Below are positions 15,520-54,856 of a DNA stretch of 64,000 bases, in pieces. This stretch comes from Mobula hypostoma (Eukaryota), in the NCBI RefSeq assembly GCF_963921235.1, contig NC_086108.1, forward strand, positions 28,336,001-28,400,000. Direction: 5' to 3'. Made by a program: the position numbers and the translations under genes. The notes under the pieces were generated by a model, which saw only the letters and a program-made list of their open reading frames with translations, was not told the origin of the DNA and made no database searches. The stretch's first letter is position 1; each line of letters begins with the position of its first letter.

Positions 15520-15981
15520 CACTTCTCTCCTCTTAGATTACTTCTTTGGTCCTTTATCTTTTCCACCTATCACCTAGCAGCATCTCACTTCATAACCCTC
15601 CCCTACCCACTCATCCACCTTCTCCCTCACCTGGTCTTGCCTGTCCTATCCAGCCCTTTACCTCTCCTACCCACATGGCTTCAGCTATTACCTTCTAGCT
15701 ATTCTCCTTCCTCACCCCTCACCTGTTGATTCTAGCATTTTCCCCCTTTCTTTCCAGTACTGAGAGGGGTCTCGGCCTGAAATGTTGGCTGTTGGTTCAT
15801 TTCCATGGATGCTGCCTGACCTGCTGAGTTCCTCCAGCATTTTCTGTGTGTTGACCTGCCAGCTTGAACTCCTTCCCTGCCCTCACCCCAACTTTTGTAG
15901 CTTCTTCCCCCTTCTTTTTCAGTCCTGACGATGAGTCTCAGCATGAAATGTCAAGTGTTTATTCTCCTCCATATGCCTGAT
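15520..15981 (+). mobile_element. Penelope-type terminal repeat, two tandem partial units with hammerhead-like cores
   Basis: Pyrimidine-rich leader, then CAGTACTGAGAGGGGTCTCGGCCTGAAATG..GATGCTGCCTGACCTGCTGAGTTCCTCCAGCA, then a second unit CAGTCCTGACGA..GAAATGTC. The second unit resumes at 18438-18490 after a CR1 insertion. Confidence 0.65.
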
Positions 15982-18437
15982 TTAGAAACATAGCATCACA
16001 GAAAACTTACAGCACAATATAGGTCCTTCGGCCCACAAAGCTGTGTCGAACATGAACTTACTTTAGAAATTACCTAGAGTTACCCATAGCCCTCTATTTT
16101 ACTAAGCTCCATGTACCTATCCAGGAGTCTTTTAAAAGACCCTATTGTATCCACCTCCACCACCATTGCCAGCAGCCCATTTGACGCACTCACCACTCTC
16201 TGTGTAAAAAAATTATCCCTGAAATCTCTTCTATACCTTCTTCCAAGCACCTTAAAACTGTGTCCTCTCATGTTCACTGTTTCAGCCCGGGGAAAAAGCC
16301 TCTGACTATCCACACATTCAATGCCTCTCATCATCTTATACACCTCTGTCAGGTCACCTCTCATGCTCCGCTGCTCCAAGGAGAAAAGGCCAAGTTCACT
16401 CAATCTATTCTCATAAGTCATGCTCCCCAATCCAGACAACATCCTTGTAAATCTCCTCTGCACCCTTTCTATAGTTTCCACATCCTTCCTGTAGTGAGGT
16501 GACCAGAAATGAGCACAGTACTCCAAGGGGGGTCTGACCAGGGTCTTATATAGCTGTACATTACCTCTCAGCTCTTGAACTCAATTCCACAGTTGATGAA
16601 GGCCAATGCACTGTATGCCTTCTTAACCACACAGTTAACCTGCCCAGCAGCTTTGAGTGTCCAATGGATTTGGACCCCAAGATCCCTCTGTTCCTCCACA
16701 CTGTCAAGAGTCCTGCCATTAATACTATATTCTGCCATCATATTTGACCTACTAAAATGAACCACCTCACACTTACCTGGGTTGAACTCCATTTGCCACT
16801 TCTCAGCCCAGTTTTGCATCCTATTGATGTCCCGCTGTAACCTGTAACAGCCCTCCACACTATCCACAACACCCTCAACCTTTGTGTGATCAGCAAATTT
16901 ACTAACCCATCCCTCAACTTTCTCATCCAGGTCATTTATCAAAATCACGAAGAGTAAGGGTCACAGAACAGATCCCTGAGGCACACCACTGTTCACCAAC
17001 CTCCATGCAATATGTGACCAACCTACAACCACTCTTTGCCTTCTGTGGGAAAGCCAGTTCTACATCCACAAAGCAAGGTTCCCTTGGATCCCATGCTTCT
17101 TTATTTTCTCAATAAGCCTTGCAAGGGGTACCTTATCAAATGCCTTGCTGAAATCTTTATACACTACATCTATTGCTCTACCTTCATCAATCTGTTTGGT
17201 CACATCCTCAAAAAATTCAGTCAGGCTCATAAGGCACAACCTGCCTTTGACAAAGCCATGCTGACTATTCCTAATCATATTATGCCTCTCCAAATGTTCA
17301 TAAATCCTGCCTCTCAGGATCTTCTCCATCAACTTAATAAACACTGAAGTAAGACTCACTGGTCTATAATTTCCTGGGCTATCTCTGCTCCCTTTCTTGA
17401 ATAAGGGAGCAACATCTGCGACCCTCCAATCCTCCAGAACCTCTCCCGTCCCCATTGATAATGCAAAGTTCATTGCCAGAGGCTCAGCAATCTCCTCCCT
17501 CACCTCCCACAGTAGACTGGGGTATATCTCATCCGGTCCCAGTGGCTTATCCAATTTGATACTTTCCAAAAGCATCCTCCTTCTTAATGCTTGTATGATC
17601 AACCTTTTCTGTCCGTTGTAAGTCATCCCTACAATTGCCAAGTGAATTTCTGCAATGAATACCAAAACAAAGTATTCTTTAATTACCTCTGCTGTCTCCT
17701 CTGGTTCCATACACACTTTTCCACTGTCACACTTGATTGGTCCTATACTCTCACATCTTATCCCCTTGCTCTTCACCTACTTCTAGAATGCCTTGGGATT
17801 TTTCTTAATAGTACTCACCAAGACCTTCTCATGGCCCTTCCTGGCTCTCCTAATTTCATTCTTAAACTCCTTCCTGCCAGCCTTATATTTTCAAGATCTC
17901 TATCATTACCTGGATTTTTGAACATTTCGTAAGTTTTGCTTTTCTTCTTGACTAGATTTTCAACAACCTTTTTACACCATGGTTCCTGTACCCTACCATC
18001 ATTTCCCTGTCTCAATGAAATGTACCTATGCAGAACACTATGCAAATATCCCCTGAACATTTGCCACATTTCTGCCGTATATTTCCCTGAGAACATCTGC
18101 TCCCAATTTATGCTTCCAAGTTCCTGCCTGATTGCTTCATATTTCGCCTTACTTCAATTACACGTTTTCCGAACTTGTCTGCTCCTATCCCTCTCCAGTA
18201 CTATGGTAAAGGAGAGAGAATTGTGACCACTATCTCCAAAATGCTCTCTCACTGAGAGACCCGACAGTTGACCAGATTTGTTTTCCAATACATGTTAAGT
18301 ACAGCCCCTCCTCTTGTAGGCTTATCTACATATTGTGTCAGGAAACCCTCCTGAACACACCTAATAAGTTCCACCCTATCTAAACCCCTTGCTCCAGGGA
18401 GATGCCAATCAATATTGAGGAAATTAAAATCTTCCAT
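15982..18437 (-). mobile_element. CR1 LINE, 5'-truncated within the endonuclease domain
   Basis: Minus-strand ORFs run from DFNFLNIDW through GNYRPVSLTS, DFSKAFDKVP and VSKFADHTK to EYCAHFWSPHYRKD; AAACATAG-type tail at the left end. Confidence 0.95.
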
Positions 18438-18530
18438 CAGCATTTTGTGTTTTGCTCTGGATTTCCAGCATCTGCCAATTCTCCTGTGGACTAATTTGTA
18501 TTTTTGATCAAAGAAAGTTTATTTCAGCCA

Positions 18531-18731
18531 ACATACACCAAAGTTGCTGGTGAACGCAGCAGGCCAAGCAGCATCTATAGGAAGAGGTGCAGTCGACGTT
18601 TCAGGCCGAGACCGGCCTGAAACGTCGACTGCACCTCTTCCTATAGATGCTGCTTGGCCTGCTGCGTTCACCAGCAACTTTGATGTATGTTGCTTGAATT
18701 TCCAGCATCTGCAGAATTCCTGTTGTTTGCA
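18531..18731. mobile_element. Young Penelope-type foldback insertion (80-bp arms, 4-nt loop) with 13-bp TSD
   Basis: Arms 18529-18608 and 18613-18692 are 79/80 complementary. TTTATTTCAGCCA occurs at 18518-18530 and 18732-18744. Confidence 0.9.
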
Positions 18732-19034
18732 TTTATTTCAGCCATATATGTTAAGAATATCAGTTGTTGGTAATGTTTGAGATTTGGAGGCTGATTGTTC
18801 TGCTGCCTCATTCTGAAGTTCTGATAGCTGAGAGTAAAGTGCTGCTCTTCCATGATGTGTTGTGGCTCACCTCAGTCATAAAATCAGAAGTTTGTGTGCT
18901 GTGCTATATAAATCCTCTTTTGCATCATGCATTAATCCATCCATGTTAAGTAACCTTTTCTACAGGGCTTAACGTAATCACATTATCATCCTGTGCTGTG
19001 GAAAACATTACTGATCCTGTGAGGACCATTGAGA

Positions 19035-20752
19035 TTAGGACCAATCAAGTGTGACAGTGGAAAAGTGTGTATGGAACCAGAGGAGATAGCAGAGGTACTT
19101 AATGAGTACTTTGCTTCCATATTCACTACAGAAAAGAATCTTGGCAGTTGTAGGGATGACTTACAGTGGGCTGAAATGCTTGAACATGTAGATATTAAGG
19201 AAGAGGATGTGCTAGAGCTTTTGGAAAGCATCAGGTTGGATAAGTCGCCAGGACTGGACGAGATGTACGTCAGGTTACCGTGGGAGGCGAGGGAGGAGAT
19301 TACTGAGCCTCTGGTGATAATTTTTGCATGATCATTGGTGGCGAGAAACGTTCTAGAGGATTGGAGGTTTGTGGATGTTGTTCTCTTATTCAAGAAAGGG
19401 CATAGAGATAGCCCAGGAAATTATAGACCAGTGAGTCTTACTTCAGTGGTTGGTAAGTTAATGGTGAAGATCCTGAGAGGCAGGATTTATGAACATTTGG
19501 AGAGACATAATATGATTAGAAATAGTCAGCATGGCTTTGTCAAAAGCAAGTCGTGCCTTACGAGCCTGATTGAATTTTTTGAGGATGTGACTAAACAGTT
19601 TGATGAAGGTAGAGCAATAGACGTAGTGTATATGGATTTCAGCAAGGCATTTGATAAGGTACCCCATGCAAGGCTTATTGAGACAGTAAGGAAGAATGGG
19701 ATCCAAGGGGACCTTGCTTTGTGGATCCAGAATTGGCTTGCCACAGAAGACGAAGAGTGGTTGTAGACTGGTCATGTTCTGCATGGAGGCCGGTCACCAG
19801 TGGTGTTCCTCAGGGATCTGGAACCCCTACTCTTTGTGGTTTTTATAAAGACCTGGATAAGGAAGTGGAGGGATGGGTGAGTAAATTTGCTGATGACACA
19901 AAGGTTGGGGGTGTTGTGGATAGTGTGGAGGGCTGTCAGAGGCTACAGTGGGACATTGATAGGATGCAAAACCAGGCTGAAAAGTGGCAGATGGCGTTCA
20001 TCCCAGATAAGTGTGAGAGGTCAAATATGATGGCAGAATATAGTATTAATGTTAAGACTGTTGGCAGTGTGGAGGATCAGAGGAATCTTGGAGTCCGAGT
20101 CCAGAGGACATTCAAAGCTGCTGTGCAGGTTGACTCTGTGGTTAAGAAGGCATACGGTGCATTGGCCTTCATCAATCATAGGATTGAGTTTTAGAGCTGA
20201 GAGGTAATGTTGCAGCTATATAAGACTCTGGTCAGACCCCACTTGCAGTACTGTGCTCAGTTCTGATCGCCTCAATACAGGAAGGATGTGGAAACCATAG
20301 AAAGGGTGCAAAGGAGATTTAGAAGGATGTTACCTGGATTGGGGAGCATGCCTTATGAGAATAGGTTGAGTGAACTTGGCCTTTCCTCCTTGGAGCGATG
20401 GAGGATGAGAGGTGACCTGATAGAGGTGTACAAGATGATGAGAGGCTTTCTCCCAGGGCTGAAATGGCTAGCACAAGGGAGCACAGTTTTAAGGTGCTTG
20501 GAAGTAGGTACAGAGGAGATGTCAGGGGTAAGTTTTTTACACAGAGAGTGGTGAGTGCATGGAATGGGTTGCCAGCGACTGTGGTGGAGGCAGATACAAT
20601 AGGGTCTTTTAAGTGACTGCTGGATAGGTACATGGAGCTTAGAAAAATAGAGGGCTATGGGTAACCCTAGGTAATTTCTAAGGTAAAGTCATGTTCGGCA
20701 CAGCTTTGTGGGCTGAAGGGCCTGTATTGTGCTGTCGGTTCTCTAGGTTTCT
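19035..20752 (+). mobile_element. CR1 LINE, 5'-truncated, same subfamily as 15982-18437
   Basis: GPIKCDSGKVCMEPEE, GNYRPVSLTS, YMDFSKAFDKVPH, SKFADDTK. TSD ATTGAGA at 19028-19034 and 20753-20759. Confidence 0.95.
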
Positions 20753-21095
20753 ATTGAGAGAATAGAAGTCAGGCCATCTTGTTTTCGGGCACTGTTTTAA
20801 TCAGATGTAAGAGGTTGCTCTGAACGCTTCAGGAACTCATTCCATTCTTCAATGCTGCTCCATTCCCAGAAAGACAAAACACAAGGGGAAGGTCAGCACT
20901 GTAATGGTGCAGACTGGCAGCTGGTTTTGATGACCACCACACTGCTCTGTTGATCTCTAGCCCATACTGGACAGCTCAGATCATCACTGTTCAACACTGG
21001 GCAGTTGTTTACTAGGCAGCTCTGATGATTACTAGTATTCTCTGTGCTGTTGATTACTGACCCACAATGAACAGTACTGACAGTCACTGGCATAT

Positions 21096-21318
21096 ACTGG
21101 GCAGCCAATTACTGGCACACACAGGGTAGCCAATCACTGACACACACTAGGAACCAATCATTAGCACACATTGGGCAGCCAATCACTGACACACACTGGC
21201 AGCCAATTACTGACACATACTAGGAAGCCAATCACTGACATCCACTGGGCAGCCAATCACTGGCACACACTAGGTAGCCAATCACTGGCACACAGTGGAC
21301 AGCAAATCGTTGGCATAC
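21096..21318 (+). repeat. 25-bp minisatellite, 9 copies (ACTGGGCAGCCAATCACTGGCACAC)
   Basis: Units of 24-25 bp read directly from the sequence; 8 of 9 retain CCAAT. Confidence 0.92.
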
Positions 21319-21824
21319 AGGATGCTGCTATGACATTATTTCAATTTCAGATTCACAGTATTACAGTTTTTTCACTAAGTTTTACACCTATTTGGTTAAA
21401 TATTAGCAGTATGACTTGATCTGAACAGGTATTGAGATTTATGATAGAAATCAGTAACATTGCATTGAGGATTCAAACAGGGAATGATGAAGATATTCAG
21501 GCAATCGAGCAGCATATGTGAGTCAATAACTTCTCATGGAAACCAACTATTTCAACTTTACAGCATCTGCCATATTTTCTTTTACATTATGTGCTATTTC
21601 ACACTGCTGCTGTGATCATAACTGCTGAAACCTGCACATTCAGTCATTCCTCTAGGACACACAGCTATTCTGACAGAGGGATCTAATGAAACAAGGTGAA
21701 ATGGACTTCCCATTCATTAGCTTTGGGCAAGGACAGGTGCAAGTATCTCAATCTTGTGTCTTCCTTTTAAGTATTTGGATCAATTATCATGAGGAATATG
21801 GCTGTTCCAGGAAACATGTTAAAC

Positions 21825-22045
21825 AACACACACACAAAATGGTGGAGGAACTCAGCAGGTCAGGCAGCAACTATGGAAATGAATAAACAGTCAATGTTAT
21901 GGGCCAAGACTTTCATCAGTACGAGAAAGCAAGAGGATGATGCCAGAATAAGAAAGTGGTGGAAGGGGAAGGAGGACAGATTAGGAGGTGACAGGTAAAG
22001 CCAGGAAGGTCGGGGAGGGAGTGGAATAAGAAGCTGGGAGGTGAT
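21825..22045 (-). mobile_element. Penelope-type terminal repeat copy
   Basis: GGAGGAACTCAGCAGGTCAGGCAGCA..CAGTCAATGTT..GGGCCAAGACTTTCATCAG is the reverse complement of the 15.7-kb unit. Confidence 0.7.
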
Positions 22046-22189
22046 GCCCTGCCTGCTTTCTGAACATCCTGTATCTGACGGTCAGCTTGAGAGTGGCAGT
22101 GATCAGAGAAGAACATCAGTGGATCTGGCCATGAGTGCTTTCAGACTGGGCTAAGCCCTCAGGTGACTTGCAACAGTGCTCCATTTAAC

Positions 22190-25270: not shown

Positions 25271-25819
25271 CTTGAGGATTTGGTTGACAGCTCCCCAAGT
25301 TATTGCCCATGTATAAAAGCCAAATTAGTTTATTATTCTGTGCATACATGCATGTGTGTACAGGTGCAATGAAAAACTTACCTTCAGCAGCATCAGAGGC
25401 ACATAGCGTCAGATAAGCAGCATTCACAAGAAAACATAAATTAAATATAAATTATACAGAATTTTCTGAGAAAACTAATAGAGAATAAACAAAGGTCCAT
25501 TTTGGTGCAAAGTGATCGAATTGTTCATAATAACACCATAAGACATTCAAAAAATTTCAATGAGGTCCCCCCATCCACCCCATCCTTCTAAATTCCAGTG
25601 AGTACGGACCCAGCGCTATCAAATGTTCCTTGTATGATAACCTTTTTATTTATGGAATAATCTTTGTGAACCTCCCCTGAACCCTCCCAATGCAGCACAA
25701 CTTTTCTTAGATGAGAAATTAGTTGTTGCCACCTAATTTCATCTTGCAGGAAGTTAAATTGTGCAAGCCATGACACAGCTGTCAATCATCTGCCTATGAT
25801 TCCAGTTAAGTCTGAAATG

Positions 25820-25906
25820 TAGCAGGCCAGGCAGCATTCTGCTGCGTTCACTAGCAACTTTGATGTGTGTTGCTTGAATTTCCAGCATCTGCAGAATTCC
25901 TCGTGT
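25820..25906 (+). mobile_element. Micro Penelope-type insertion with short inverted 5' piece and 14-bp TSD
   Basis: TTAAGTCTGAAATG at 25806-25819 and 25907-25920. The insert is AGCAGGCCAGGCAGCAT (inverted) followed by CTGCTGCGTTCAC..CAGCATCTGCAGAATTCC. Confidence 0.85.
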
Positions 25907-28900
25907 TTAAGTCTGAAATGACATCTTTGCATTTACAATGGCCTTTGGACAATGTACCTGGACTTCTCAACTAACTCTGGGTTGTCGTCCTAAATGCACA
26001 GATCTAGCCCTTAGCAGATTACAAATTTCTAGGCTTATCCAGGCTTTCTGGCTCAGGGTGATCTGCTGAGTGAGCATCTAAGGCAGATCTTCCCATGGTG
26101 ATCTACTTCCCCACACAATTTGCACCTTGATCTCCTGACAGTCTTTGGTCTAAAGGCCCTCCCAGTGCAATTCATTCACATGATTACTTGGCACTGGTCT
26201 GCTAGATGTCCTGCTGCTTGTTGAAGTTATAGCACACTCTGGACTGTACTACATACACCATATACCTACGTACATCTTTCCCCAACTGTGAAAATAGATG
26301 ACAAGTAGATAATAATTCCCTTGTCAATGACTCTCTATGTGACCTTGACCTGGCATTTGCTCATCAAATCAAAGTAATTATTCACATTGATACAGTTTCC
26401 TGCTCCCTCAACAGATTGGGACAGGGAAGTGTGCACATCCTTGAAAGGAAATAAGGATTGAATGTGTGTATAGCGAATATACATTCTCTTCTTGTGGGAA
26501 AGGCAAAGAACAGCTGTCCTTCACCAGTAAAAGGTGGACTTAACTAGTATCAATAATTAAAATGCATCATAATCTCCCTTCTCTTATATTCTGTGCAATG
26601 GCTAATGAAGGTATGTATCCTTTATGTCTTTTTCACTATTTTATCTTCTTATGCAGTATCTTCAGGAATCCTTAACTTGCACACAAAGATTCCCCATTCA
26701 TCAATACTCCCATTCACTATTAGTCCTCTCAAAGTGTATTCCCTGAACTTATCAGAATTAAATTCCACCTGCCATTGTTTTGCCAATCTTAACAACTGAT
26801 CAATATTATCCTTCAATCTAAATTGACTTGTTAATATAAACAAAATTATTTTTGATAAGGCAGTCTAAACTTGCCCTTGGTAGCATGCATTTAAATTATA
26901 TATTCTTTTCAATAGGGTAGAAAAGGTTAAAGGTAGATTTAATTTTGGTTAAAATATTATGAAACAATTAAGTCTTTTTAATTGTGATGAGGAGAGTAAT
27001 TTTCTGGTCCAAAAGTGTAAGTGGTGGGGAGTCACGAATGTATAATTGATATTAGCAATAAGTAAAAATATTAGAAGCAATTCTTAAGGAAAAGCTTATG
27101 GACCACACAATAATTTGCATTGGAAGAGTGTTGATTCAGAGTCCATTGCATCTTTAAGAAAGCTTGAACTAATATCTGAAATAGAAAAGGTAAATGTTGT
27201 GGACAGTATGGCTTTCCCCTTAAATTATACGAGCAAAGAATTAGCACAGACCATTCAAATGGTCACTCACCGTGGTAGCAAGTGCTTAGGTCATTAAAAT
27301 GCTATTGCTGTTAATAATATAATAACTACTGGTAAATTATCATGAATTCGTTTTAGATGATATCTATAGAACACTAAAGTTATCATTGGTAATCTACACT
27401 AATGGTTTTAGGAAATAAACAGATAAATCATCGTTACTCATAAAAATGGCAAGACTGGTAAAGTTCACAAATTATTTTAGGTAACAAATTGAAATCAATA
27501 TTAGTGGATTGTTAAATTATTACTGGTATGTAAAAATAGCACTTTAAATAATGAACAATTAAAATACTTCTGGTAATGGAAATACTACTGAAAACAAACC
27601 CAGAAATGATTTTAAATAATGTAGATAAAACCTTCTTTAATGCAGATTATTTCCACAATACAACACTAAAGTTACAATTAGCGAGCATGCAATGACTCTA
27701 CTTAACGTAGACAGGCTAAGTCGAATGTCATCTGCAAGGTTCGAGAGGCCGCCTATGATATCATGATGTCAAGAAATGACCTGAAATTGTCCTGAAAATT
27801 GATTTTGATACGAGAGAATGTGCAGAGAGAGAGAGAGAAAAAAATCCTTCGTTATTGTAGACTTAACCGGACCAAGTCAAAGTGAAAGAAAACTGAGGAT
27901 ATGCCACATTTGTGGGCACTATAAACGCTGGGTTAAATCCGTACTGCATGGGAAAGTGAATCGTTTAAGTTTATCTTTCTAATGTAATAAAATCAGTAAT
28001 AATACTATATTTTCCAAAATTAACATCTAAATAGAATCTTGGAATTGGGGGTTGGGTTGTTCTAATTCGCCGTGTTGTGTAAATGGTCGCAATTAACGGA
28101 AATTTGAACCTAGTAGCAGCGAAGCGGGAATAAATCTTGATGGGTCAAAACGCCAGCAGCTAAAGGAAGAATAAACCACTCACTCCCTGAGCTCTGGTAA
28201 TGGGATCATTGCAAGCAGTATTTATTCTCTCCGAAATTCGCCAACTGAAGTGTGAGAAAGCAGTGGAAAAGCTCGTTGCATATCTCGTGTGTTTGTCGCA
28301 ATGGTTCTTCTGTAAGCTATGTTAGTCATTATCCAAGCATTGACCTGGTCCGGGGGAATTAGACATGATAAGCAGCTCAGGGTAGGTGGGATTTATGCAT
28401 CACCTCGAAAACTTGTGGTTTTTTTTCTCCGATTTAACCATTAAAAGTTAGCCGTAAATGTTTATTAAAGCCCATTAGTTGTGTATGTGCGTAGGTGGCT
28501 TGCCGTAGCGCAGTGAGTTCAGTGCATCGCAAATACGTCCTTTCGAAATACTTCAGGGGCTGCTAGCTATCCTGCAGTGTCTGATCCAGGAATCCATTCA
28601 GATCCGCAGGCTTAGAGTTGATATCAAGGGGCAGCTGTTAGATGTTTGAAACTGGACTGAGCAAGTGGGCTGGTGGGTAGACTTCCGGATGCAAATCAGT
28701 AAGTATCTTTTCATAGGACGAAAGGATCGGCTTCAATGTTGTGAATTGTTATCAACTGTGCTTAGAAAGGCGTTTTGCAGAAGAAAGAAATGGAAACAGG
28801 TTCAGCGCTTCAAATGCCAGTGTTATACTAAATCAGGCACATGAATTTACCTAAGATCTTGTTCTGAATTGTCTGCATTCATGTGAATGTGTTACTATCG

Positions 28901-31900
28901 TGACATACAGATGTGTGATTCTGTGTGTTGTTGGGATTGCTGAGCAGCAATGTAAAGCAATCTTCACCGTGTGGGATTATCTGCTTCTCCCAGCGTTTAT
29001 AGGAACGTGTGTATTCATGGCAAATTATTATTTCCGTGTTCACCATTAAGTTTTCTTTCTTACTGGTGTTTCTGTGCATTTGGCTAATGAGCTACATTTC
29101 AGTGTGAATGGATTAATATTAAAGTTACCTTTTAATTGCTTGTTTCTGGATTGATTAGAAACGATTGTATTTTATGTCCTGTTTTGAAACGTGGAAGTTA
29201 AGACATTCACTCAGATCGTATTAGAACTAAAACATATAATGCTTATGTCAGTCTAGTTCTCTAGCAGTTCTGCAATTTCAGAATAGGTTGTTTCTTTTAA
29301 GTTTGTGTTGAGGACGTTCTATGCTAAAACGTTCACAAAGTTTAAGAAAAACTTTAAAACAAATTAGATTCAATGGTTTATGTTAAAATTCCAGTCGTTT
29401 CTTGAAGCAGAGTAGGCTAGGGACTGCGAAATTAATGTAGACGATGCTGGAAGCACGGAGCACGTGTTTCCACGTCTTTGAAAATAACAACATTGTGCTT
29501 TAGGTTGAAGATATTTTGTCACAATTCAAGGCAAAGCCCTTTGGATAAGGCCGGCAATTCTTACGGAAGTTGTTCCATCTGAAATGTTAACTTTGTTTCC
29601 TTCCCCGTGGATGTTGCCTGATCTTTTGGACATTTCGAACATTCTCTGTTTTTACTTCAGGTTGCCTGCATCTGCAGTTATTTTTGTGTGTGTGACTGTG
29701 ATTTGTTAAAATGGGGATTACTTCAAAATCTGCTTATGCAACACCGTGGACTCCTACATTTCGATTTTCAAATAAAATTCACCACGCTATTTCCTCTACT
29801 GCTCCCACCCCCCATCACACGATTGATCCTAACTTTTCACTTTTTCAGTCCCGTGTCTTCCGTTCCCATATTTTAGCCGTGAGCCCCTACATTTCTAGAA
29901 AAGCTTTTGGTAAACAGGAAATGGATCGTGCAATCTACGTAAGGGGCTTGGGAATTTAATCTTTGATCACAGCAATGCCTCATTCTCTCTGCAGTGAGGA
30001 CGCAGTTCAGTTTGTTAGATGATGTCTTGACGTTGATTGCATTTCTGTATGTATACCTGAGAGGGTTTAGTTTCAAAATGTAGCGGCCGTGCTCTCCTTT
30101 CCCAAAGGCAGGTGTGCGTTTGCGGCGGTTCATCCTTGAAACTCTCAGCATCTCCCAGATTGATTCTTCTATAATATGTTTCCAAATTAATCTTTGCTAG
30201 ATACTTTATCGATTGTGTTTCATTCTGACGAACGATCAATGAATTCAATGGAAATCAATTCTTTCGCTGATTTAATACGTGGGACAAGCAGGCCTGTGAA
30301 AGATTCTCCCTGGATTCGTTTTGTTGAGTATTCACACCTTTTGGGGACAGTTTTACAATTTACACAAGCGCACACCATTCCAACATGTTTATTTAGGATA
30401 TTTGAAATACTACCCGAACGTTTTAATTGGATTCAGCAGGGCAGGGAACATCTGTAGAAGGAGAAGCAGTCAACTTTTCGGATGAAAAACCCTTCGTGGG
30501 ATTGTAGATAGCACATGACTCGAGTGCGAATATGTACCTTTGATCTGGTCTGCAGTTAACGGCCGCACAATGAGGCGATTTTGGGAAACATTGTAAGACT
30601 GGATAAAGTCAAAGGAGGAATATCAATTACTGAAAGATTTTAACTTCATGGCATTTCATTTAAAAAAACAAAGGTAGCGGATTTATAAAGAATTTCTTCT
30701 TTGCATACGTAGACAAGGAAGTAACAGCTCCACACAGACGAATCAGTTTGTTGCTGAAATTAAAGTTGGCGTTGAGAGTCCTCGCGATATTATTATATCA
30801 GCTGCAAATCGCAAGATAGAAATATGCATAGTTAAGGACGTAGTAGACTTGGGTAATTATCTTATGTTCCTCGCGACTTTTCCTTACAGGTGATTTATGC
30901 TGCAGTTTTTCTTCCAGGAGTAGTCTTGTAAACCCAACGTTACGGTGGGAAATTTGAATAATGCAGTCTGTCTCGTGCACACTGTAATTAAAGCAATGGA
31001 GGTGAATAATGTAATTTTGTATGCAAAACTGGGAATCCAAAATAAAAATCGAATCACATACATGAAATAACCGCGTGGGCATCCAGCAATAGTTATGGAG
31101 AAGCGACTCTCAGGGGACGTGAAATGGGAGTCATTGCGAGAGAACCTGGTGTGCCAAAGCAGATTGGGGGTTCAGTGAAAAAGTAGCTAGTGTGATAACG
31201 AGGAATTAATTAAACCAAAAATAGAAAACGCCGGAAAAGCACAGCGTGTCAACATGTTGAAAGTATCTCGACATAAAACGTAAACACTTGTTTTCTCCAG
31301 CACATTGTTTTTTTTTTCAGATGACCAAGATATGCACCTTTTTAAATATTACAGTTAAGATGTGATCCAGTCAAACCAAAAAAAACTCTTATACAAGTTT
31401 ATAAACATAATGAAAAAGTGCATTTTTTTGCCACGTAGACAGCGTAGCTGGAGATTTATATGCAACTGTGTGCACAAGTTGGTGAGGCCAGAAAGGAGAG
31501 AGAAGAGAATTAGCAGAATAGAGCGAGGATTGAGTGACCACGTAACATGGAGAGATTGGGGTTGTACTTCTGCGGGCAGAGAAGATTAAGGGGGAGGTCT
31601 TTCTGAGGGGCTAAAATCATGAAGGTAGATAAGGAGAAGGTGGTTCGGTTGGCAGTAGAGACAAGTCATGCGGTATTTGTTGTCAAGTGCGCAGGTGGGG
31701 TAAGTTAGAGAACACTTGCTGATGTTTGGGATAGGGTTGAGCAGGACTATCTGCGCGAAGAACCTGATGATCTTAGCAACGCAGTTGCTCCTGAACCGAG
31801 TGATGTTAAGTCGGCTTAAGTTGACTGGTGTGACAGCAAGAGGAGAAGTGAGGAAGACGTACTTGACATGGAGAGTCCTGACCTGCGGACTCGAGGCGGA

Positions 31901-31964: not shown

Positions 31965-32004
<40 letters not shown>

Positions 32005-33041: not shown

Positions 33042-34151
33042 TTAACCACTCGCGCCATCACAACCTGCAGACTCCCCACAGACAACGGAACGATTGGTCG
33101 AATGTTCATCGTATGCCCTAGTACATTCCAAGCATCATCCTTCCTCTGTTACATCTTTCAACTTCGAATCTCATGGCCAATCCAATCCATTGTGATATCT
33201 GCAATCAAACTGCAAATGTCTTCTATCATTGAAAACACTTGCTCCTTATCTACCCCTTACGTTTCTGCTGGTATCTTTAATTCCACTCCACAGGTCTCCT
33301 CGACCATTGGCGAGCACAGCACACCCGGTAACAATCTCTTCTGTAATCCAGTCTCCGAATTGTCAGGTCTTGGTTGGAGGCTTTGGTTGCGATTGCTTCT
33401 ATGTACACACTGAACAACACAGCTCACAATCACCCTTCTTGTTGGTCGTTGATCTAACTTCCTGAACTACCACCTTCATTTTTGTCCTGCCGCGTTGCGT
33501 ATTTTATTGGCAACTATCTCTCCACGGCATACCAATTGTGGGGTAATGTTAGCTCATCTCAGTTCGCTCTGCTTAAACAAAATGTAAATGAAACTGAATA
33601 CTTCTGCATAATGTTCCTTAATTTTCTGGATTCATCCTTATTATCCGAGATATATTTTGCCCACTCGTGCTGTGAGCGTTTCTTAAACTAGAATAGTTAA
33701 TGGACAAGCTTTGGGACAATCCAAAAAATTGAGAATTAAAATGACTCATGCTGACGCGTATGACAAGAAGGTGGAATGTGGGATTAAATTAAGACAATCG
33801 AAGAAAAGCAACGTTGACTAAACTGAAAAAGGAACCGGAGACTGGATTACAGAGGAGATTGTTACCGGGTGTGCTGTGCTCGCCAATGGTCGAGGAGACT
33901 TGTGGTGTGGAATTAAAGATACCAGCAGAAACGTAAGGGGTAGGTAAGGAAGAAGCGTTTTCAATGATAGAAGGCATTTGCAGTTTGATTGCAGATATCA
34001 CATTGGATTGGATTGGCCATGAGATTCGAAGTTGAAAGATGTAACAGAGGAAGGATGATGCTTGGAATGTACTAGGGCATATGATAAACATTCGACCAAT
34101 CGTTCCGTTGTCTGTGGGGAGTCTGCAGGTTGTGATGGTGTGAGTGGTTAA
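33042..34151. repeat. Long inverted repeat: 316-bp arms (33042-33357, 33836-34151), 478-bp spacer
   Basis: The arms are ungapped reverse complements with about 13 mismatches by hand count. Also visible as the near-identical ORFs 33024-33413(+) and 33789-34205(-). Confidence 0.95.
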
Positions 34152-36370: not shown

Positions 36371-36374
36371 TTAG

Positions 36375-36472
36375 CAACATATACAAAATGCTGGAGGAAC
36401 TCAGCAGGTCAGGCAGCAGCCATGGAAATGAACAGATAGCAGACGTTTTGGGCCGAGACCCTTCTTCAAGAT
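36375..36472 (-). mobile_element. Penelope-type terminal repeat copy
   Basis: AAAATGCTGGAGGAACTCAGCAGGTCAGGCAGCA..GACGTTTTGGGCCGAGACCCTTCTTCA. Confidence 0.75.
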
Positions 36473-37249
36473 TATACATGTATCTATAGGACCAGATTGT
36501 GATCAACAGAGTGTTAGGCCTTCAATGAGGTTCTAGCTGAGACATTGAGCTGCGAGCCAGACTTGATGGCAAGGGCATAGGCAACGTGCCGGGAGCTTGT
36601 ATATTGTGAAACTTGGATGGACAAGAGAGGTGCAGCAGATCCGGATAGAGATTAATACAATCACGGTGCTTATGAAAGTGGAGCTCATGCCTTCGGACCA
36701 ACAACAACCCTAAGCAGTGACATCTCCAAAGATGTTTCACAACTGGATCATTAAAGAACAAAAGAAACATTAAAACATTCAATTAAGCATGACAGAGGCA
36801 GCACGGTGCAGAACTTTACGGCTGTTGGAAAGGTGGAGAATCTGGAAAATGTGAAGAAGGTATCTCAGGGCTAACTTGGCCAAGAGTGGACAAACAAGGA
36901 GTACACGTGAACGGCCTGGAGTGGAAGAAGACGCGACAGTCAAATGTCGATACCACGGAAGTAAACCATAGGAATAAGGAAAGAGATCACTGTCATAGAT
37001 ATTTCTGCCACAATTGGATCGGCAGTGCTGCTGCCTTCTAGGCTGGTGGAACTTAACTATTTGGTTAGTCCAGTGACTGTTAAAACCAGGGGGAAAAAGT
37101 GGCGTAAGATCAGACTGACAGTATTCAGAACATAAAACTCGATTCTACACGGTACAAACATTGGATGATGGGCGCGGGTCTGCTACCTGCTCTTGCCACA
37201 ACCATAAATATAGGGCCATGCTTTCTGTGCCAAAATTCGGGAGTGGAAT

Positions 37250-37664: not shown

Positions 37665-37740
37665 ATGATGCAAAGTGCGGCGGTCGCCACAGAGAGTCCT
37701 GGGAAAGGAGTTCAGGAGCTGTTGGGAGTCACAGTGCAAC
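37665..37740 (+). CDS. lhx4: LIM/homeobox protein Lhx4, coding exon 1 (MMQSAAVATESPGKGVQELLGVTVQ + 1 nt)
   Basis: ATG at 37665, 76 nt, GTAAGG donor at 37741 (phase 1). The peptide resembles the vertebrate Lhx4 N-terminus as I recall it ([26 protein letters not shown]) and splices in frame to exon 2 (C|AG = Gln). Confidence 0.93.
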
Positions 37741-39801: not shown

Positions 39802-39973
39802 AGATCCCGCTGTGTGCCGGCTGCAATCAGCACATACTGGATAAGTTCATCCTGAAGGTGCTGGACCGATCTTGGCACAGCAAGTGCCTGAAATGTGCCG
39901 ACTGTCAAGTCCAGCTGGCCGACAAGTGCTTCTCCAGGGCTGGGAACGTCTATTGCAAGGAAGACTTCTTCAA
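39802..39973 (+). CDS. lhx4: Lhx4 coding exon 2, first LIM domain ([58 protein letters not shown])
   Basis: Polypyrimidine tract and TAG acceptor ending at 39801, 172-nt open exon, GTGAGT donor at 39974. Complete LIM ligand set C-x2-C-x17-H-x2-C-x2-C-x2-C-x16-C-x2-[20 protein letters not shown] and CKEDFFK favour Lhx4 over Lhx3. Not present in the ORF track in this frame. Confidence 0.96.
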
Positions 39974-45612: not shown

Positions 45613-46636
45613 TATCTGGGGCAGCATTTCATAGGATTTTGAAAGCTGTAATTAAGTTTGTGGGATGCAAGTTTTTGTTCCTGATATAGAACAGGCAGTG
45701 ATGATCCTATATACAACATTTGTATGACCAGCTAACAAGTTTTGAAGAGTATTGGATGGCACAGTGTAAGCAGGATACGTATGTTTTGGAGATACCATAA
45801 AGTAGACTGACCAAGATGAACATATAGTGAAATACTGGAAAATTGGCATGTTATTTTTGAGACATAATGCATGGCTTTGAATTTATCCAAGATGAGATAT
45901 AATCAGACTGTTTTTAATAATGATGGGGGCTAAGGCAAGGGGTGACATGTATGAGATCAAATGCAAATTTAGAATAGAGTGTGGAAGCAAGCTCATTACA
46001 AGGATACCTGTGAAAATGAGATATACTCTTCGAGGGTTCAGACAGAAGATGTGTGGGAAATCAAAATTATGTTGGAAAGGGGGAATGACAGGATTGAGAA
46101 ACAGGAGCCAGATCTGGTCGTGTGTTTTCTCAAGCATGATCTTCCATTCCAAAAGGACCCATCTAACTGCCTATACCCCAAGGTGGAATTCCTGCTTTAT
46201 TCCCATGTCTGTTTTTTTTTGGTCCTTCAATTGCAGTTTTGAATATACCCAGTAACTGAGCAGTCACAACCACCCAAAGTAGAAAACTAAAGATTTATAA
46301 CCTTTCTGATTGAAGTTCCTTCTCACCTTATACTGTACCTAAATGGCTGACTACTTCTAAGGCTGTTCTTCAGGGTACAGTCCTAAAAAATAGGTTGAGG
46401 GGAACAGTTTAATTGAATCACAACCATTTATGGAAGGTAGCTGTTGGTGTTTAAGGTTCTAATAGCTTGATTTGATGTGCTAAGTTCTCTATGTTTTTAT
46501 GCTAATTTGCTTAGTTACAGTCTATTTGGGCCATGACCAGACTTGCACAATAAATGATGAGCAACTGTTCAGAGGAGCTATTTATTACCACCCTAGGTGA
46601 TGCGACTCCTGAATCCTCACTCCAGTTGTGCTTCTG

Positions 46637-49600: not shown

Positions 49601-49780
49601 GCTGAGTCTGAGCTATTCAAATCTTGATTGTCTAATCAACGGCTTTCTGCTGATCTATTCAAATCTTGATTGAGTTGATTGCACAGACCAACTGCCAAAA
49701 CTGCCAGAATCTCTCGAGTCAAAGCCTCAAAGCTCCATTCCTTCACTGGCCCACTCACTCACTGGCCACTTTCCACAGCA
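46637..49780 (-). mobile_element. Relatively young CR1 LINE with 5' UTR, ORF1 (zinc finger/leucine zipper + SGNH esterase) and 5' part of ORF2; 3' end missing
   Basis: CLSCEMW..HICQKC..LEQQLDDLRLIR; VVIGDSTVRG..GARV..DGLHMN; YDVVAITETWL; VGDFNFPNIDW; the RT ends abruptly at FSKAFDN (~46640). Frameshifted. Confidence 0.93.
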
Positions 49781-50214
49781 AACAGCAAAACATAGATTCA
49801 AAAACTATATAATTTTTTAAAAGTGGGTTAGATAAAACATTTTCTTCCACTAAATTTCAAATTGGTAGAAAATTTCAATGCCTTGACAATGAATTAAGAG
49901 TAGTTTGCACAAGCGGCGTGGCCTGATTCTCCTGCTCCCAGAAGGCATGAATTTCTGTTAACCATGCCTTCGTTCATCATGTTGTGAGATGCAGTGGTCC
50001 TTCCAAAGAAGCATTATATTACATTTTAAAAATCCTGTTTCTTGAAGGAGCTTTTGTTTGGATCTTCCCCATTGTTATTACTCAGGTTTTGGAACTGAAC
50101 CTATGTGTACAACAGGCCTCCTGTGTTGTTTGAGGCTGATAGCCATAACCCAGGAACAGAACCTGTGTTTCTCAATCTGAATGCCTGATGCCACCCTGTT
50201 CCCTATTTGCATAT

Positions 50215-50600
50215 GTACTTAATGCCCATTACACTGCTGGCATTTAGGGAAGCAAAGAAGGTCCTCCATCTCTGTCTGTCCTTTGCCATCTTCTCGATTG
50301 TGCCCCAGGTGTAGTTCAGCTTTCTCATTCTGCCTTTACCGTCTTTGGTCTCTCACATTTCCTCCACCAATCAATGAAGTGCTGTCTTGATGATGCAGTT
50401 GGCCTCTTCACATATTTCCTCATGCGGCCATGTCATCTTGATGACACTGAAGGCGTGAGGCGTGGTTGGAAATCTTTCTTGGCCCGAAAATATGGAGGAT
50501 CTTCTCAAGGCTCCTAGTGTGGAATAACAACAGCTTGGGAAGATCACTCTCTGTCCTGTGCCAGCATTCTGACCGTACTTGCATATCCCTGATTTTTTTT
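50215..50600 (-). mobile_element. RTE-clade LINE 3' fragment
   Basis: The minus strand translates to MRKLNYTWGTIEKMAKDRQRWRTFFASLNA, a typical RTE C-terminus. Confidence 0.65.
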
Positions 50601-51836
50601 TTGGTCCACCATTCTGCCTTTAGCTATATAGGTCCCAAGTTCGTGAATTCCCTTCCCATCCTTTACAATATTTCCAAACCCCTCAACTTTTTTAAAATTA
50701 CTTCTGCTCCACCTCTTTAATGCAGGCACACTTGCTCTGATAAATCTTTATATCTTAAAGTCAACTTTGTTTTGTAATTACCCTTGTGAAGAGCTTTGGA
50801 TATTTTATTATATTTAAGTATACAAGGTGTTGCAGTTTCCCAACCTGTATTGTATGTAGTACACACAAGTAATCGAGAGGTTTGTGCTTGCCTTTCATTG
50901 TAATCAATTTAACTCCTATGCCTGTATTTACTCACTATAATTTTATTGTTAACCTTCGACTTGAGCTAAATTTAATCCTATAGCCAGCATGTTGTGAATC
51001 TGTCAGTGCTTAAGATTGCCCAACAAACAGCTAAGTGAACTGCTGAGACGGCACAGTTGCTGTAACCAAACTAGTGCGCATTATGGATTGGAGTAATTCT
51101 TCAAGGAAGCAGCACAGGAAGTGCGCAATTTAAGAATTGGTATTGCTGCAGTTAAATCATGTGAATTCTTGCACAGAGTGGTGCCCAATGTGGAGTTTTA
51201 TGACTGAGATTATGTGCTGTTCTGTCTTCATTGATGTGAGTTATTAATGTTAGGACAATTGGATTCTTTCGCAACACTGACAATACAAAGTCGGTGGACA
51301 GTAACATGAGTTGTTGAACACATGTCAACGTTTAAATGTAATTATTTTAATTTTCTGCTCTGTCTTCTCTGTAATCCAGCCTTTCTTCCACTCTCTTTGT
51401 TTTTTTTTAATATATCCCACACCGGTTTTGAACAAATCAAATCTTAACCTGGTTATCTCAGTCTTCTTACCTCATTGATTAACCTGTTTGTTTTACGTGA
51501 CTACAGTTGTAGCCGTCCCTCTGTCCTTGTCACCCAGTTGTCCACAGGATAAGCAATAAAATGAGCAAAATAGAGACACAAGGGACTGAATATCTGGGAA
51601 CCTGGAGCCATGCACAGGACCCTGAAGAAACTCTATGGGTCAGGCCGATGGGTAGAGATTGGTCTCCAGCAGGTGAAGAGCTTCAACTCGAAACTCAATT
51701 GCCAATCTTCTTCCACAGACACTCTCTGATCCTCCAGCATTGTGTGTGTGTTGCAACATGAGGAACAACATGTTTTAATAAGTTAGTATACATTTGTAAA
51801 TCTTAAAACAGGCCATGTGTAACGTATCGGTACATA

Positions 51837-52383
51837 CACTCAGTGATCACATTGTTAGATACCTGGTAAAATGGCCACCGAGTGTCTGTCTGTGGTCTTC
51901 TGCTGCTGTAGCCCATCCACTTTAAGGTTCAATGTGTTATGTGATCTTCTGCACACCACTGTTGTAACATGTGGTTATTTGATTTGTTGTCACCTTTCTT
52001 TCTCCTGGAACCAGTCTGGCCACACCCCTTTGACCTCTCTCATAAACAAGGCTTTTTTTTGCCCACAAAACTGCCACTCACTGCGTGTTTTGTTTTGTTT
52101 GTTTGTTTTTTGCTCCATTCTCTGTAAATCCCAGGAGATCAGCACTTTCTGCAATGCTCAAACCACCCTGTTTGGCACCAACAATCATGCCATGCTGTAG
52201 GTCATTTTGGCCATATTTCTTCTCCAGTCTGATGTTTGGACTGAACAACAACTGAACCTCTCGACCTTGTCTGCATGCTTTTATACATTGAGTTGCTGCC
52301 ACATGATTGGCTGGCTGATTAGATACAGTATTTGAATTAATAAGCAGGTATATAGGTGTACTTAATAAAGTGGCCACTGAGTC
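51837..52383 (-). mobile_element. Tc1/mariner-derived non-autonomous element, copy 2
   Basis: TA-CACTCAGTGATCAC..GTACTTAATAAAGTGGCCACTGAGTC-TA; the transposase N-terminal remnant GMIVGAKQGGLSIAESADLLGF lies on the minus strand. Confidence 0.82.
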
Positions 52384-53169
52384 TATTTTAAGAAGTGTGT
52401 AATTAGATTTCTGCTTCCATAATTCTTAGCCTTGGATTTGTATAAATTTTGATCATTCCATACACAGAAACCTGATTTTACATATTTGGACATTTTGGCT
52501 AAGTATTGTTAGCAGTGATCTGTACATGTAATATTTTAGTTCTTTATGGTAGTGTGTCACAGTAGATGTACATGTAGCACACTGCTATCTTTCAGGGTGG
52601 CTTTACAGTCATGATGTCACTGCCATGTATTAGAGCGCAGGACAATAGAATGTTATGAAGTATATAAATGTATTCTTTCATTGAGTGTAGTAATTTCTGA
52701 CTGTGTTTCAATATCTTTTGGGGTGCAATGTTTGATGTTCTTACAACATATATGGATATATCTGGGCTCTTCCACTGGCACACAAATGTACAAGTTGGGT
52801 GCAGGAAAAGGGCAGTCGGTCTCTGCAATCTGTATTGTTATTCAGTAAAATAATGGCTGATCTGATTATAATTTCAACTCCACATTTCCATCAGCCCACA
52901 ACAACCTTTCACTAGCTTGCTTAACATCAATCCAACTGTCTTAAAAATTCTTAATGACTCTACTTCCACTGTCCTTTGAGAAAGAGAATTCCAGATGGCT
53001 AAGGTGCACATTGAGAAAAATAATTGGCCTGGTCTCTGTATTATTTTTGTACAGTGACCCAAGTTCTAGATATTCATACAAGAGGAAGCGTCGTCTCCAT
53101 ATTCACTGTATCAAGACCACTCAGCATCTTTCATACCCAATGACCACTGTCACTCTATGTCCAATGCCT

Positions 53170-53530
53170 TATCGTCTCTTTCTTCATTTCTCCCTCCATT
53201 TCGCTTTTTCACACTGCATCACTCATTGCCTCTCCCTTGCCCACTCTTCCTCATCCCTTTTCTCACCCCAGTTTATCTCTCCAATCTCTCCATTTTCTCC
53301 TCCACTTTCATTTCCATCCTCTCATCCTCTATATCTCATCTCTCATAGCTGATTCTCACTCACTTGTTTTCCCTTCTTTCCTTGCTCCTCCTACTTCCTT
53401 CTCTCTGACTCCGCACACCTTTTCCACTTCCAGCCTCCTCACCCCCTCTCCCCTCTCTGCCTCTCATTGCTCTCTTCCATCTCTCTTCCCATTGCCTTTC
53501 CCCTCTCCTTGCTTCTCCCTACTCTCTCGA
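53170..53530 (+). repeat. Polypyrimidine/polypurine low-complexity tract
   Basis: About 360 bp dominated by C and T on the + strand. Confidence 0.85.
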
Positions 53531-53929
53531 GTTTATCTCATCAGCTCGACCCATTTGGCTAACAACACCCGGAGTGATTAGAAAAACAGGAGCATTCGAA
53601 ACTGAACAGGAATTGACCTGCCCAGTCTTTCAGCGGCTCCTTTTTCTGGGCTCTTCACTTCTTGCTCATCCAAAAATAACTTTTCTTGAGTAAACTTAAC
53701 AGTGTGATTTAACTGTACTGCTTTTTAAATGGGTTGTATATTCATCAGTGAAGGAAAACAGTTATATGCACAAGAAACAAGAATGACAGATTGCTGAGAC
53801 CTGAGGCTATTTGATCAGTGGTAATCACAAAGATAGCTCGAGTCCATTGAGGAATATGAGCACAATTACAATTTTTATTTTATTGTTTGAGGTTACTAAG
53901 ACAATTCATTTTGCACTGGACCACTCAAA

Positions 53930-54715
53930 AATAAAGTCAAAGCCCTTTCCAGGCAATATCTTTGTAAATCTCATCCACACGAAATCTAATTCCACATCCT
54001 TACAACAAAGAGATGTCCAGAACTGAACTGCAACATTACCTTGTGGCTCTTGAACTCAGCTTCACGATTAGTGAAGACCAACACAACACGTGTCTCCTTA
54101 ACCACCTGATCAACTTGCATGGTAACTTTGAGGAATCTATGGACTTGGACCCCAAGATCCCTCTGTTCCTCTACACGGCAAAGAGTCCTGCTATTAACCC
54201 TGTATTACACATCCAAGTTCAATCTTCCAAAGAATATCACTTCACACTTTTCCGTATTGAACTTCATCGAACACTTCTCAGCCCAGCTCAACATCCTATC
54301 AATATCTTGTTGTAAACTACGCAACCTTTTACTGTATTCACACTATCAAACTTTCTATCATCGACCAACTTTCTAACCCACCCTTCTACTTCCTCATCCA
54401 AGTAATGTATAAAAATTACAAAGAGCAGAGGTCCCAGAATAGAACGCTGCTGAACACCGCTAGTTACAGAACTCCAGCCAGAATATGCTCCATCTACTAC
54501 CCACCTCTGCCTTCTGTAGGCAAGCCAATTCCAAATCTTGCGCAGTCAGCTTTCCATGGATCCTATGCATCATAACTTTCTGGATGAGCTTACCATGGGA
54601 AACATTGTCAAAATCCATATGCACCACAATCACCAGTCTACCCTCATCGATTTGTTTTGTCAACGCTTTGAAAAATTCAATCATGCTCATGAGGGAAGAC
54701 ATGCTCCTCAGAAAA
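53930..54715 (-). mobile_element. CR1 LINE internal fragment
   Basis: IEFFKALTKQIDEGR..VVHMDFDNVSHGKLIQKV on the minus strand, collinear with the other CR1 copies. Confidence 0.8.
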
Positions 54716-54717
54716 CT

Positions 54718-54856
54718 ACAAACAAGAGAAAACCTGCAAATACTGGAAATCCGAGCAACTCTCACAAAATGCCGGAGGAACTCAGCAGGCCAGGCAGTAT
54801 CTATGGAAAAAAGTACAGTTGACGTTTTGGGCCAAAACCCTTCAGCAGGACTGGAC
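54718..54856 (-). mobile_element. Penelope-type terminal repeat copy spanning the whole hammerhead-like segment
   Basis: The minus strand reads CCAGTC-CTGCTGA-AGGGTTTTGGCCC-AAAACGTC-AACTG followed by the shared tail. Confidence 0.75.

What the first reader, a model, noticed from the sequence alone, without database searches (positions are those of the whole stretch)
15750..54856. Dispersed Penelope-type repeat whose consensus forms a minimal type-I hammerhead ribozyme
Seen: copies at 15755-15790, 15920-15957, 18613-18630, ~21888-21922(-), ~30465-30505(-), ~36445-36472(-) and 54816-54854(-) give a consensus CAGTC-CTGA(C/T)GA-AGGGTCTCGGCC(C/T)-GAAACGTC-GACTG. This parses as stem I (CAGTC/GACTG), the CUGANGA core, a short stem II, GAAA, a vestigial palindromic stem III (ACGU) and a GUC cleavage triplet. 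Known: Penelope-like elements and retrozymes carry minimal hammerheads that cleave as dimers. Inference: this abundant repeat is a ribozyme-bearing Penelope terminal repeat or retrozyme-like family. No single copy here is fully intact; several changes look like CpG decay. Several copies lie inside lhx4 intron 2.
Basis: partly seen in the sequence, partly recalled or inferred. Interest (0 to 1): 0.7.

Follow-up and report, generated by a model that had tools for sequence, protein, structure and literature searches.

The report
Penelope retroelement ends with uncut hammerhead
These repeats are decayed end pieces of a very abundant Penelope-like jumping gene that carries a known type of tiny hammerhead RNA motif, and insertion breakpoints across the genome suggest the copied RNA was mostly uncut and likely began at the motif's first base rather than at its cut site.

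Summary
Confirmed, and of a known kind. All seven sites are decayed 5'-truncated ends (pseudo-LTRs, pLTRs) of a Penelope-like element; none has an intact hammerhead. Genome-wide the 33-nt motif has 52,678 exact matches (control 0). It lies 300 nt behind an RT + zinc-linker + GIY-YIG ORF (Neptune-type) and recurs every ~3.5 kb in tandem copies: the minimal hammerhead of Cervera & De la Pena 2014. The scan noted the same kind in three other genomes.

Corrections: only 1 of 7 sites is in lhx4 intron 2; no stem covariation was found; 18613 is one arm of a fold-back insertion with a 13-bp target duplication.

Added here: 5' breakpoints are rare at the cut site (122 against 30,960 read-through copies) and peak 32 nt upstream, at the first base of stem I (1,706; control 389). 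In 11 of 35 internally deleted copies one 5' stop is used twice (2 expected). This fits an uncut linear template copied with end-to-end jumps, which also yields 200-450-nt hammerhead tandems resembling newborn retrozymes. Cleavage is untested.

The parts
15624..15865 (+). Older-subfamily 3' pLTR fragment (about -160 to +79 relative to the cut site); decayed hammerhead at 15755-15790
   Evidence: (E 1e-24 against a natural older copy)
15847..15980 (+). Second older pLTR fragment, hammerhead core at 15920-15957 with broken stems; a different repeat follows
18531..18613 (-). Inverted arm of a young fold-back insertion: -19 to about +65 (first tail site)
   Evidence: (I19, 97% complementary)
18613..18731 (+). 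Sense arm of the same insertion: -14 to about +102 (second tail site); carries GAAACGUC and the 3' strand of stem I only
   Evidence: 97.6% identity, E 2e-43
18518..18530 (.). 13-bp target-site duplication, left copy (right copy 18732-18744)
21792..22045 (-). Older-subfamily pLTR fragment (about -163 to +95), hammerhead at 21888-21922 with GAAA broken
25806..25920 (+). Young mini-insertion without hammerhead (+32 to +101 plus a short inverted arm) inside a 14-bp target duplication
   Evidence: sequence read directly
30433..30508 (-). Strongly decayed pLTR fragment, hammerhead core broken
   Evidence: (E 2e-06 to 9e-05)
36373..36474 (-). Older copy from about -33 to +68; C3 and G12 lost; about 1.2 kb upstream of the inferred lhx4 start codon
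42284..42328 (+). Tail-only fragment (+67 to +101) with a 7-bp flanking repeat
54720..54854 (-). Older copy from -33 to +102; A6 and G12 lost; the only listed copy in lhx4 intron 2
   Evidence: (E 1e-20)
39802..39973 (+). Host gene context: Lhx4 LIM1 exon (exon 2); exon 1 inferred at 37665-37740
   Evidence: (Lhx4 E 6e-37, Lhx3 1e-30)

Best explanation
The repeat is the hammerhead-bearing terminal segment (pseudo-LTR) of an abundant, recently spreading Penelope-like retrotransposon, and the window copies are dead 5'-truncated remnants that were likely copied from RNA in which the hammerhead had not been cut. Shown: a unit of about 3,514 nt with one ORF (1,016 aa unbroken in L173; RT, Cys-rich linker, GIY-YIG); one hammerhead per unit, 300 nt after the stop and 138 nt before the next ATG; 3' ends at two sites 35 nt apart; 13-15-bp target duplications; head-to-head arms that end at different tail sites. 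Inferred: the endonuclease nicks both strands, each nick primes RT internally at one of the two tail sites (as shown in vitro for the Anolis element), RT runs through the intact hammerhead, and most copies stop early. Inferred: one common template 5' end is the A that opens stem I (-32). Predicted: the monomer folds into an inactive rod in which the core pairs with the cut site, so cleavage would need a dimer or the element's protein and is likely a later or regulatory step rather than the maker of template ends.
For: 52,678 exact motifs, control 0. GIY-YIG coding sequence upstream in long copies. Pfam RVT_1 E 3e-05 and GIY-YIG E 1e-03 (both below gathering score); DKG, GVAMG, YIDD, CxxxxCxxC and two His motifs. 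Hammerheads 3,511-3,515 nt apart in L069, L074, L083 and three in L173. 3' ends of 30 copies: 11 at +64 to +69 and 11 at +101 to +103. Of 88 loci bearing the ORF start, 1 has its 5' end within 10 nt of the cut and 59 run upstream through a second hammerhead position. Genome-wide breakpoints: 1,706 at -32, 389 at -36, 460 at -28, 122 at the cut, 59 at +4, against 30,960 copies reading through the cut. Monomer fold: core GACG pairs with CGUC, 4 kcal/mol below the open core. PMC11167929 (parts 1-2 read): HHR mutants do not affect insertion; cleavage needs protein.
Against: No compensatory change in either stem (0 of 8 pairs; the alignment was enriched for damaged copies), and the block downstream is as conserved as the hammerhead, so selection on catalysis is not shown. 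The youngest subfamily has U at 11.1 (189 of 199), weakening the usual G10.1-C11.1 pair. The cut site has about twice the breakpoints of +4 (122 vs 59), which could be a small cut fraction, although 4 of 20 such loci are fold-back joints through the stem I complement. About a tenth of the -32 matches are older subfamilies with different upstream sequence, not breakpoints (3 of 30 loci). A seamlessly re-ligated circle would also leave no mark at the cut site. No RT tree was built.
Confidence: 0.85

Rival explanations
1. Cut-and-circularise model of Cervera & De la Pena: two hammerheads in a tandem transcript cleave as a dimer, the 3.5-kb unit is ligated into a circle, and RT copies it for more than one round.
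For: More-than-unit copies are common: 59 of 88 ORF-start loci extend upstream of the 5' cut site, and L069 and L173 hold over two units at 98-99% identity. Exact ligation leaves no scar. The palindromic ACGU is kept in all subfamilies.
Against: A circle has no 5' end, yet in 11 of 35 deleted copies the same upstream stop is used twice within one insertion (shuffled mean 2.0, 0 of 20,000 shuffles as high; 7 of 26 without the -32 class). None of the 35 acceptors lies within 5 nt of the cut. Tandem source loci can supply over-length linear RNA without a circle.
Confidence: 0.25
2. The motif is kept not for cleavage but as a structured or promoter element: a transcription start at -32 (the local sequence fits the YYANWYY initiator pattern, recalled) plus a protein-binding hairpin.
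For: The breakpoint peak falls on the initiator-like A. Conservation between subfamilies starts at -32 and is equally high in the downstream hairpin. The Drosophila Penelope pLTR holds an Inr/DPE promoter (PMC2377424, passages). Naiad PLEs proliferate without a hammerhead (10.1101/2021.04.23.441226, passages).
Against: Apart from CpG-type changes and one 3-of-6 plurality at U4 in an old subfamily, the catalytic positions, the extra A and both stems are kept across four subfamilies, while N7 and a stem II loop position vary, which is the hammerhead pattern. The Anolis PLE hammerhead cleaves in vitro when protein is added (PMC11167929).
Confidence: 0.15
3. The dispersed short copies are an independent non-autonomous family (retrozyme or SINE) with its own RNA intermediate.
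For: Short copies with their own target duplications vastly outnumber copies bearing the ORF start (52,678 motifs vs 561 exact ORF-start matches). Some loci are tandems of 200-450-nt hammerhead units.
Against: 5' ends form a continuum from the hammerhead into the ORF. Short copies are 93-100% identical to the autonomous unit. Each tandem has its own junction (35 loci, donors all different but for two pairs), so there is no amplified master.
Confidence: 0.07

Closest known systems
Minimal hammerheads (min-HHR) in the pLTRs of metazoan Penelope-like elements (Cervera & De la Pena 2014, PMC4209133; parts 1-2 of 4 read)
   Same: Type I topology, no loop 3, palindromic 15.2-16.2, an extra nucleotide between 9 and 10.1, 4-5-bp helix I, one motif per pLTR, mostly single truncated copies, some close pairs on opposite strands.
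   Different: Helix II is 4 bp, not the 7-8 bp of the schistosome motifs. The youngest subfamily has U11.1. Copy number (over 52,000 exact) exceeds the about 4,000 and 9,000 reported there for coelacanth and Xenopus, and the motif is homogeneous rather than heterogeneous.
Neptune-type endonuclease-bearing PLEs (features as given in Craig et al., 10.1101/2021.04.23.441226, passages)
   Same: RT then GIY-YIG in one ORF, CX2-5CxxC linker, CCHH endonuclease residues, partial tandems, inverted 5'-truncated copy, 30-40-bp tail.
   Different: Clade placement rests on motifs only; Nematis shares the linker and no tree was built.
Poseidon element of Anolis carolinensis (Frangieh et al. 2024, PMC11167929; parts 1-2 of 4 read)
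   Same: Two RT start sites bounding the tail, extension on both strands, uncut RNA as the dominant substrate.
   Different: There the hammerhead overlaps the start codon and the RT start sites lie 111-118 nt inside the ORF. Here the ATG is 138 nt after the cut and both tail sites lie before it.
Non-LTR retrozymes (Cervera & De la Pena 2020, PMC7229834, passages; Li et al. 2026, 10.64898/2026.07.22.740005, parts 1 and 3 read)
   Same: Derived tandems of 200-450 nt with a complete hammerhead per unit (L174: 4 units of 310 nt; L170: 262 nt; L103: 441 nt), in the reported 170-400-nt range.
   Different: The window copies are not tandem. The genome's tandems are one-off, include the first 30-160 nt of the ORF, and carry a minimal rather than a canonical hammerhead. 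Circular RNA is not shown.

Membership tests
Endonuclease-bearing Penelope-like element | Single ORF with RT followed by GIY-YIG endonuclease | tested here: met
   (1,016-aa unbroken ORF in L173; Pfam hits significant but under gathering score)
Endonuclease-bearing Penelope-like element | Tandem or partial-tandem units forming pLTRs | tested here: met
   (period 3,511-3,515 nt)
Endonuclease-bearing Penelope-like element | 30-40-nt optional tail and inverted 5'-truncated copy | tested here: met
   window 18531-18731
Endonuclease-bearing Penelope-like element | RT groups with PLE/telomerase RTs in a tree | not tested
Endonuclease-bearing Penelope-like element | Spliceosomal intron in the pLTR (some PLEs) | tested here: inconclusive
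   the 37 junctions inspected are not GT-AG splice joints; no RNA reads
Neptune clade | CX2-5CxxC zinc-finger linker between RT and EN; CCHH in EN | tested here: met
   the linker is shared with Nematis, so not exclusive
Minimal type I hammerhead (min-HHR) | CUGANGA, GAAA, UH core with palindromic 15.2-16.2 and no loop 3 | tested here: met
   intact in 124 of 199 young copies, 1 of 20 older copies and 0 of the 7 window sites
Minimal type I hammerhead (min-HHR) | Extra nucleotide between 9 and 10.1, and a G10.1-C11.1 pair | tested here: inconclusive
   met in older subfamilies; G-U (or an A-U register shift) in the youngest
Minimal type I hammerhead (min-HHR) | Compensatory changes in the stems among families | tested here: not met
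   0 of 8 pairs; stems are invariant rather than covarying within this genome, so the test has little power
Minimal type I hammerhead (min-HHR) | Self-cleavage after GUC as a dimer or with protein | not testable with these tools
   needs in vitro assay
Non-LTR retrozyme | Tandem units each with a complete hammerhead | tested here: not met
   not met for the window copies; met only at derived loci such as L174 and L170
Non-LTR retrozyme | Expressed as small circular RNA | not testable with these tools
   no raw RNA reads offered

The most novel reading that the evidence does not exclude
This genome records how retrozymes are born. The element's protein holds a short linear RNA that starts at the base of the uncut hammerhead (or a little upstream) and ends 30-160 nt into the ORF. 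It primes RT at both tail sites, runs off the RNA's 5' end and jumps to its 3' end. Each such event writes a new 200-450-nt unit flanked by two intact hammerheads, the dimer needed to cut out a retrozyme-sized RNA. About 40% of loci bearing the ORF start (35 of 88) are internally deleted products of this kind.
Probability: 0.4. Interest if true: 0.55.

Novelty: new member of a known kind. Interest (0 to 1): 0.3.

Why it matters
The kind has been known since 2014 and the window copies are dead, so the catch itself is ordinary. What has value is the scale. Tens of thousands of near-identical insertions let breakpoints be counted base by base, which bears on an open question: what the PLE hammerhead does. 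The counts agree with the one in vitro study (uncut RNA is copied), point to a specific RNA 5' end at the first base of stem I, and offer a direct route from an autonomous element to retrozyme-sized tandems, a link so far argued from co-occurrence and trees. Natural two-hammerhead units of 200-450 nt are ready substrates for dimer-cleavage assays.

Tried and rejected
Rfam scan of the window: no hammerhead family at E up to 5; uninformative for decayed minimal motifs.

Splice origin of the -32 junctions (a pyrimidine tract and AG precede the core): rejected, the donors lack GT and the AG stays with the acceptor.

Stem I microhomology as the main cause of the -32 peak: rejected for most loci, as the inverted arms end at many different places.

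Covariation: the first count had stem II off by one column and was redone, with no signal. The alignment included 15 loci from a search that selected for an altered stem I, which lowers the paired share. A search for a family with a different stem I returned mostly mutants of the same families.

Fold z-scores of single hammerheads were weak (+0.46 to -2.05). The constrained double-hammerhead fold lies 17-23 kcal/mol above the minimum in 10 natural two-motif loci; nearest-neighbour energies omit core contacts, so this is not used for or against.

Expression: no RNA holder listed. Laying four contig runs showed the family in other coded organisms but cannot show starts, ends or cleavage.

tblastn of the ORF against the window: no hit, so the window holds no coding part.

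Literature: 'Penelope + shark + hammerhead ribozyme' gave one review (listing only). Two further searches (listings) showed no paper on breakpoints at stem I. Subscription papers, Repbase/Dfam entries and bioRxiv supplements were not seen, and the family may be annotated there.
Full report
Observation. The seven stretches are at the stated places and all align to the end of a full-length element from the same genome (E 2e-43 to 9e-05). The window is G000:C50:28336001-28400000 of a 3.48-Gb animal genome. That it is a cartilaginous fish is my recollection from its repeat content and was not tested. None of the seven window copies is intact. Positions below are relative to the predicted cut after GUC (0 = first base after the cut).

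Host gene. A LIM1 exon at 39802-39973 matches Lhx4 better than Lhx3. A phase-compatible first exon is inferred at 37665-37740 (likeness to the Lhx4 N-terminus is recalled). Only the 54816 copy of the seven is in intron 2; the other six are upstream of the gene.

What the repeat is. Among the first 30 genomic matches, the longer copies run upstream into coding sequence for a Cys-rich linker and a GIY-YIG domain, and further into RT. A protein search found many copies with long open frames (the best 150 of 76,988 candidates scored). Twenty stretches fetched around 19 long-frame places showed hammerheads 3,511-3,515 nt apart on the same strand in L069 (three), L074 and L083. L173 holds three motifs and an unbroken 1,016-aa ORF. 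Pfam gives RVT_1 (E 3e-05) and GIY-YIG (E 1e-03), both under the gathering score. The DKG, GVAMG, YIDD, CxxxxCxxC, GVIY..YIGET and two histidine motifs are present. The hammerhead core begins 300 nt after the stop codon and the next ATG is at +138. This is an endonuclease-bearing Penelope-like element with the Neptune-type linker; no tree was built.

Ends. In 30 copies the 3' ends cluster at +64 to +69 (11) and +101 to +103 (11): the 35-nt optional tail. Many short insertions are head-to-head, one arm ending at each tail site, inside target duplications of mostly 13-15 bp. The window's 18531-18731 palindrome, with a 13-bp duplication, is one of them. This matches the two internal RT start sites and both-strand extension reported for the Anolis element (PMC11167929, parts 1-2 read).

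The hammerhead. Stem I is AGUC/GACU (5 bp with a terminal pair). Then come CUGAYGA, an extra A, stem II of 4 bp with a 4-nt loop, GAAA, CG, UC. This is the min-HHR of PMC4209133 (parts 1-2 read). At least four subfamilies share the block from -32 to +4 (31-34 of 36 commonest letters equal). Most differences are CpG-type, plus N7 and 11.1, while the spacer after +5 differs in length (older subfamilies had only 6-7 copies each, and the upstream comparison is confounded by truncation). In three of four public contig runs the family's sequences part from the reference at -32 and at +4. Against a strong claim: no compensatory change, the downstream hairpin is as conserved (biased because it was the anchor), and the youngest subfamily carries U11.1 in 189 of 199 copies. 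The monomer is predicted to fold as a rod in which core GACG pairs with the CGUC at the cut site, an off state consistent with a need for a dimer or protein.

Is the cut used? I examined 88 loci that carry the ORF start (from the first 100 of 561 matches: 90 fetched, 2 dropped as overlapping). One has its 5' end within 10 nt of the cut; 59 extend upstream of it. Genome-wide I counted copies whose three preceding bases all differ from the element: 1,706 at -32, 389 at -36, 460 at -28 (including single-base deletions), 122 at the cut and 59 at +4. The denominators are about 40,000 (77 of the 100 listed matches are that variant; estimate) and 30,960. So about 4% against 0.4%. About a tenth of the -32 class are older subfamilies (3 of 30 loci). 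The two-fold excess at the cut over +4 may be a small cut fraction or fold-back joints through the stem I complement (4 of 20 loci). Position -32 is the first base of stem I and fits an initiator pattern (recalled). A transcription start and an exonuclease stop at the stem both fit; the junctions are not splice joints.

Internally deleted copies. Thirty-five of the 88 loci join a donor in the ORF to an acceptor near the hammerhead. Nine acceptors are at -32/-33 (one of them, L174, could be -34) and none is within 5 nt of the cut. Twenty-five donors lie at +170 to +301 (2.9 expected if uniform; short donors are favoured by how the loci were chosen, which by my rough estimate raises the expectation to about 7). 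In 11 of 35 the acceptor equals, within 3 nt, the 5' end of the upstream piece or the inner end of the inverted arm (shuffled mean 2.0, none of 20,000 shuffles as high; 7 of 26 against 1.1 without the -32 class). Junctions show microhomology or short A/T-rich additions. My inference is a linear RNA with a fixed 5' end, copied from both tail sites, with RT jumping from the 5' end to the 3' end. Ten such loci carry two or more intact hammerheads 202-441 nt apart, and L174 has four 310-nt units. Its units alternate at one base, so part of that array probably grew by DNA-level duplication. These meet the operational retrozyme definition of Li et al. 2026 (part 1 read), but each junction is a one-off.

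Comparison and novelty. The system is a new member of a known kind. Three earlier notes of this scan reached the same reading on other genomes. Four literature searches showed no paper on this family or on breakpoints at stem I, but they do not cover Repbase, Dfam, most subscription journals or bioRxiv supplements. Interest 0.3: ordinary as a catch, with a modest, testable mechanistic addition.

Noticed in passing
window 15990-17750 and 19031-20754: Two LINE-like RT fragments (SKFADDT-type motif, CR1-like by recall) in inverted orientation, 84-91% complementary, flank the fold-back Penelope insertion; more such fragments lie at 10550, 23143, 46585 and 54340.
   Followed up: no
window 21056-21330: Tandem repeat of about 25 nt, at least 11 units.
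   Followed up: no
window 55315-59966 and 56457-60976: AT-rich dispersed 34-40-nt repeats and inverted arms of 110-157 nt inside lhx4 intron 2.
   Followed up: no
window 33042-33357 and 33836-34151: 316-nt inverted repeat, 96% complementary, 478 nt apart.
   Followed up: no
L097, L119, L131, L160 (element positions +777 to +989): The same 212-nt duplication inside the ORF recurs in 4 of 88 loci, so a variant lineage of the element carrying it has spread.
   Followed up: no
L072:1149-7302: Two near-full ORFs (904 and 964 aa open) joined head-to-head, a 6-kb fold-back insertion.
   Followed up: partly
L231, L234, L251 (just after the cut triplet): Three copies lose 9-12 nt right after GUC; a repeated CUC/GUC-UU microhomology could explain it, but a link to cleavage was not tested.
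   Followed up: no
L239:1501-1600: A copy jumps from the cut triplet back into upstream pLTR sequence, a possible cut-site junction (1 of 30 loci in that search).
   Followed up: no
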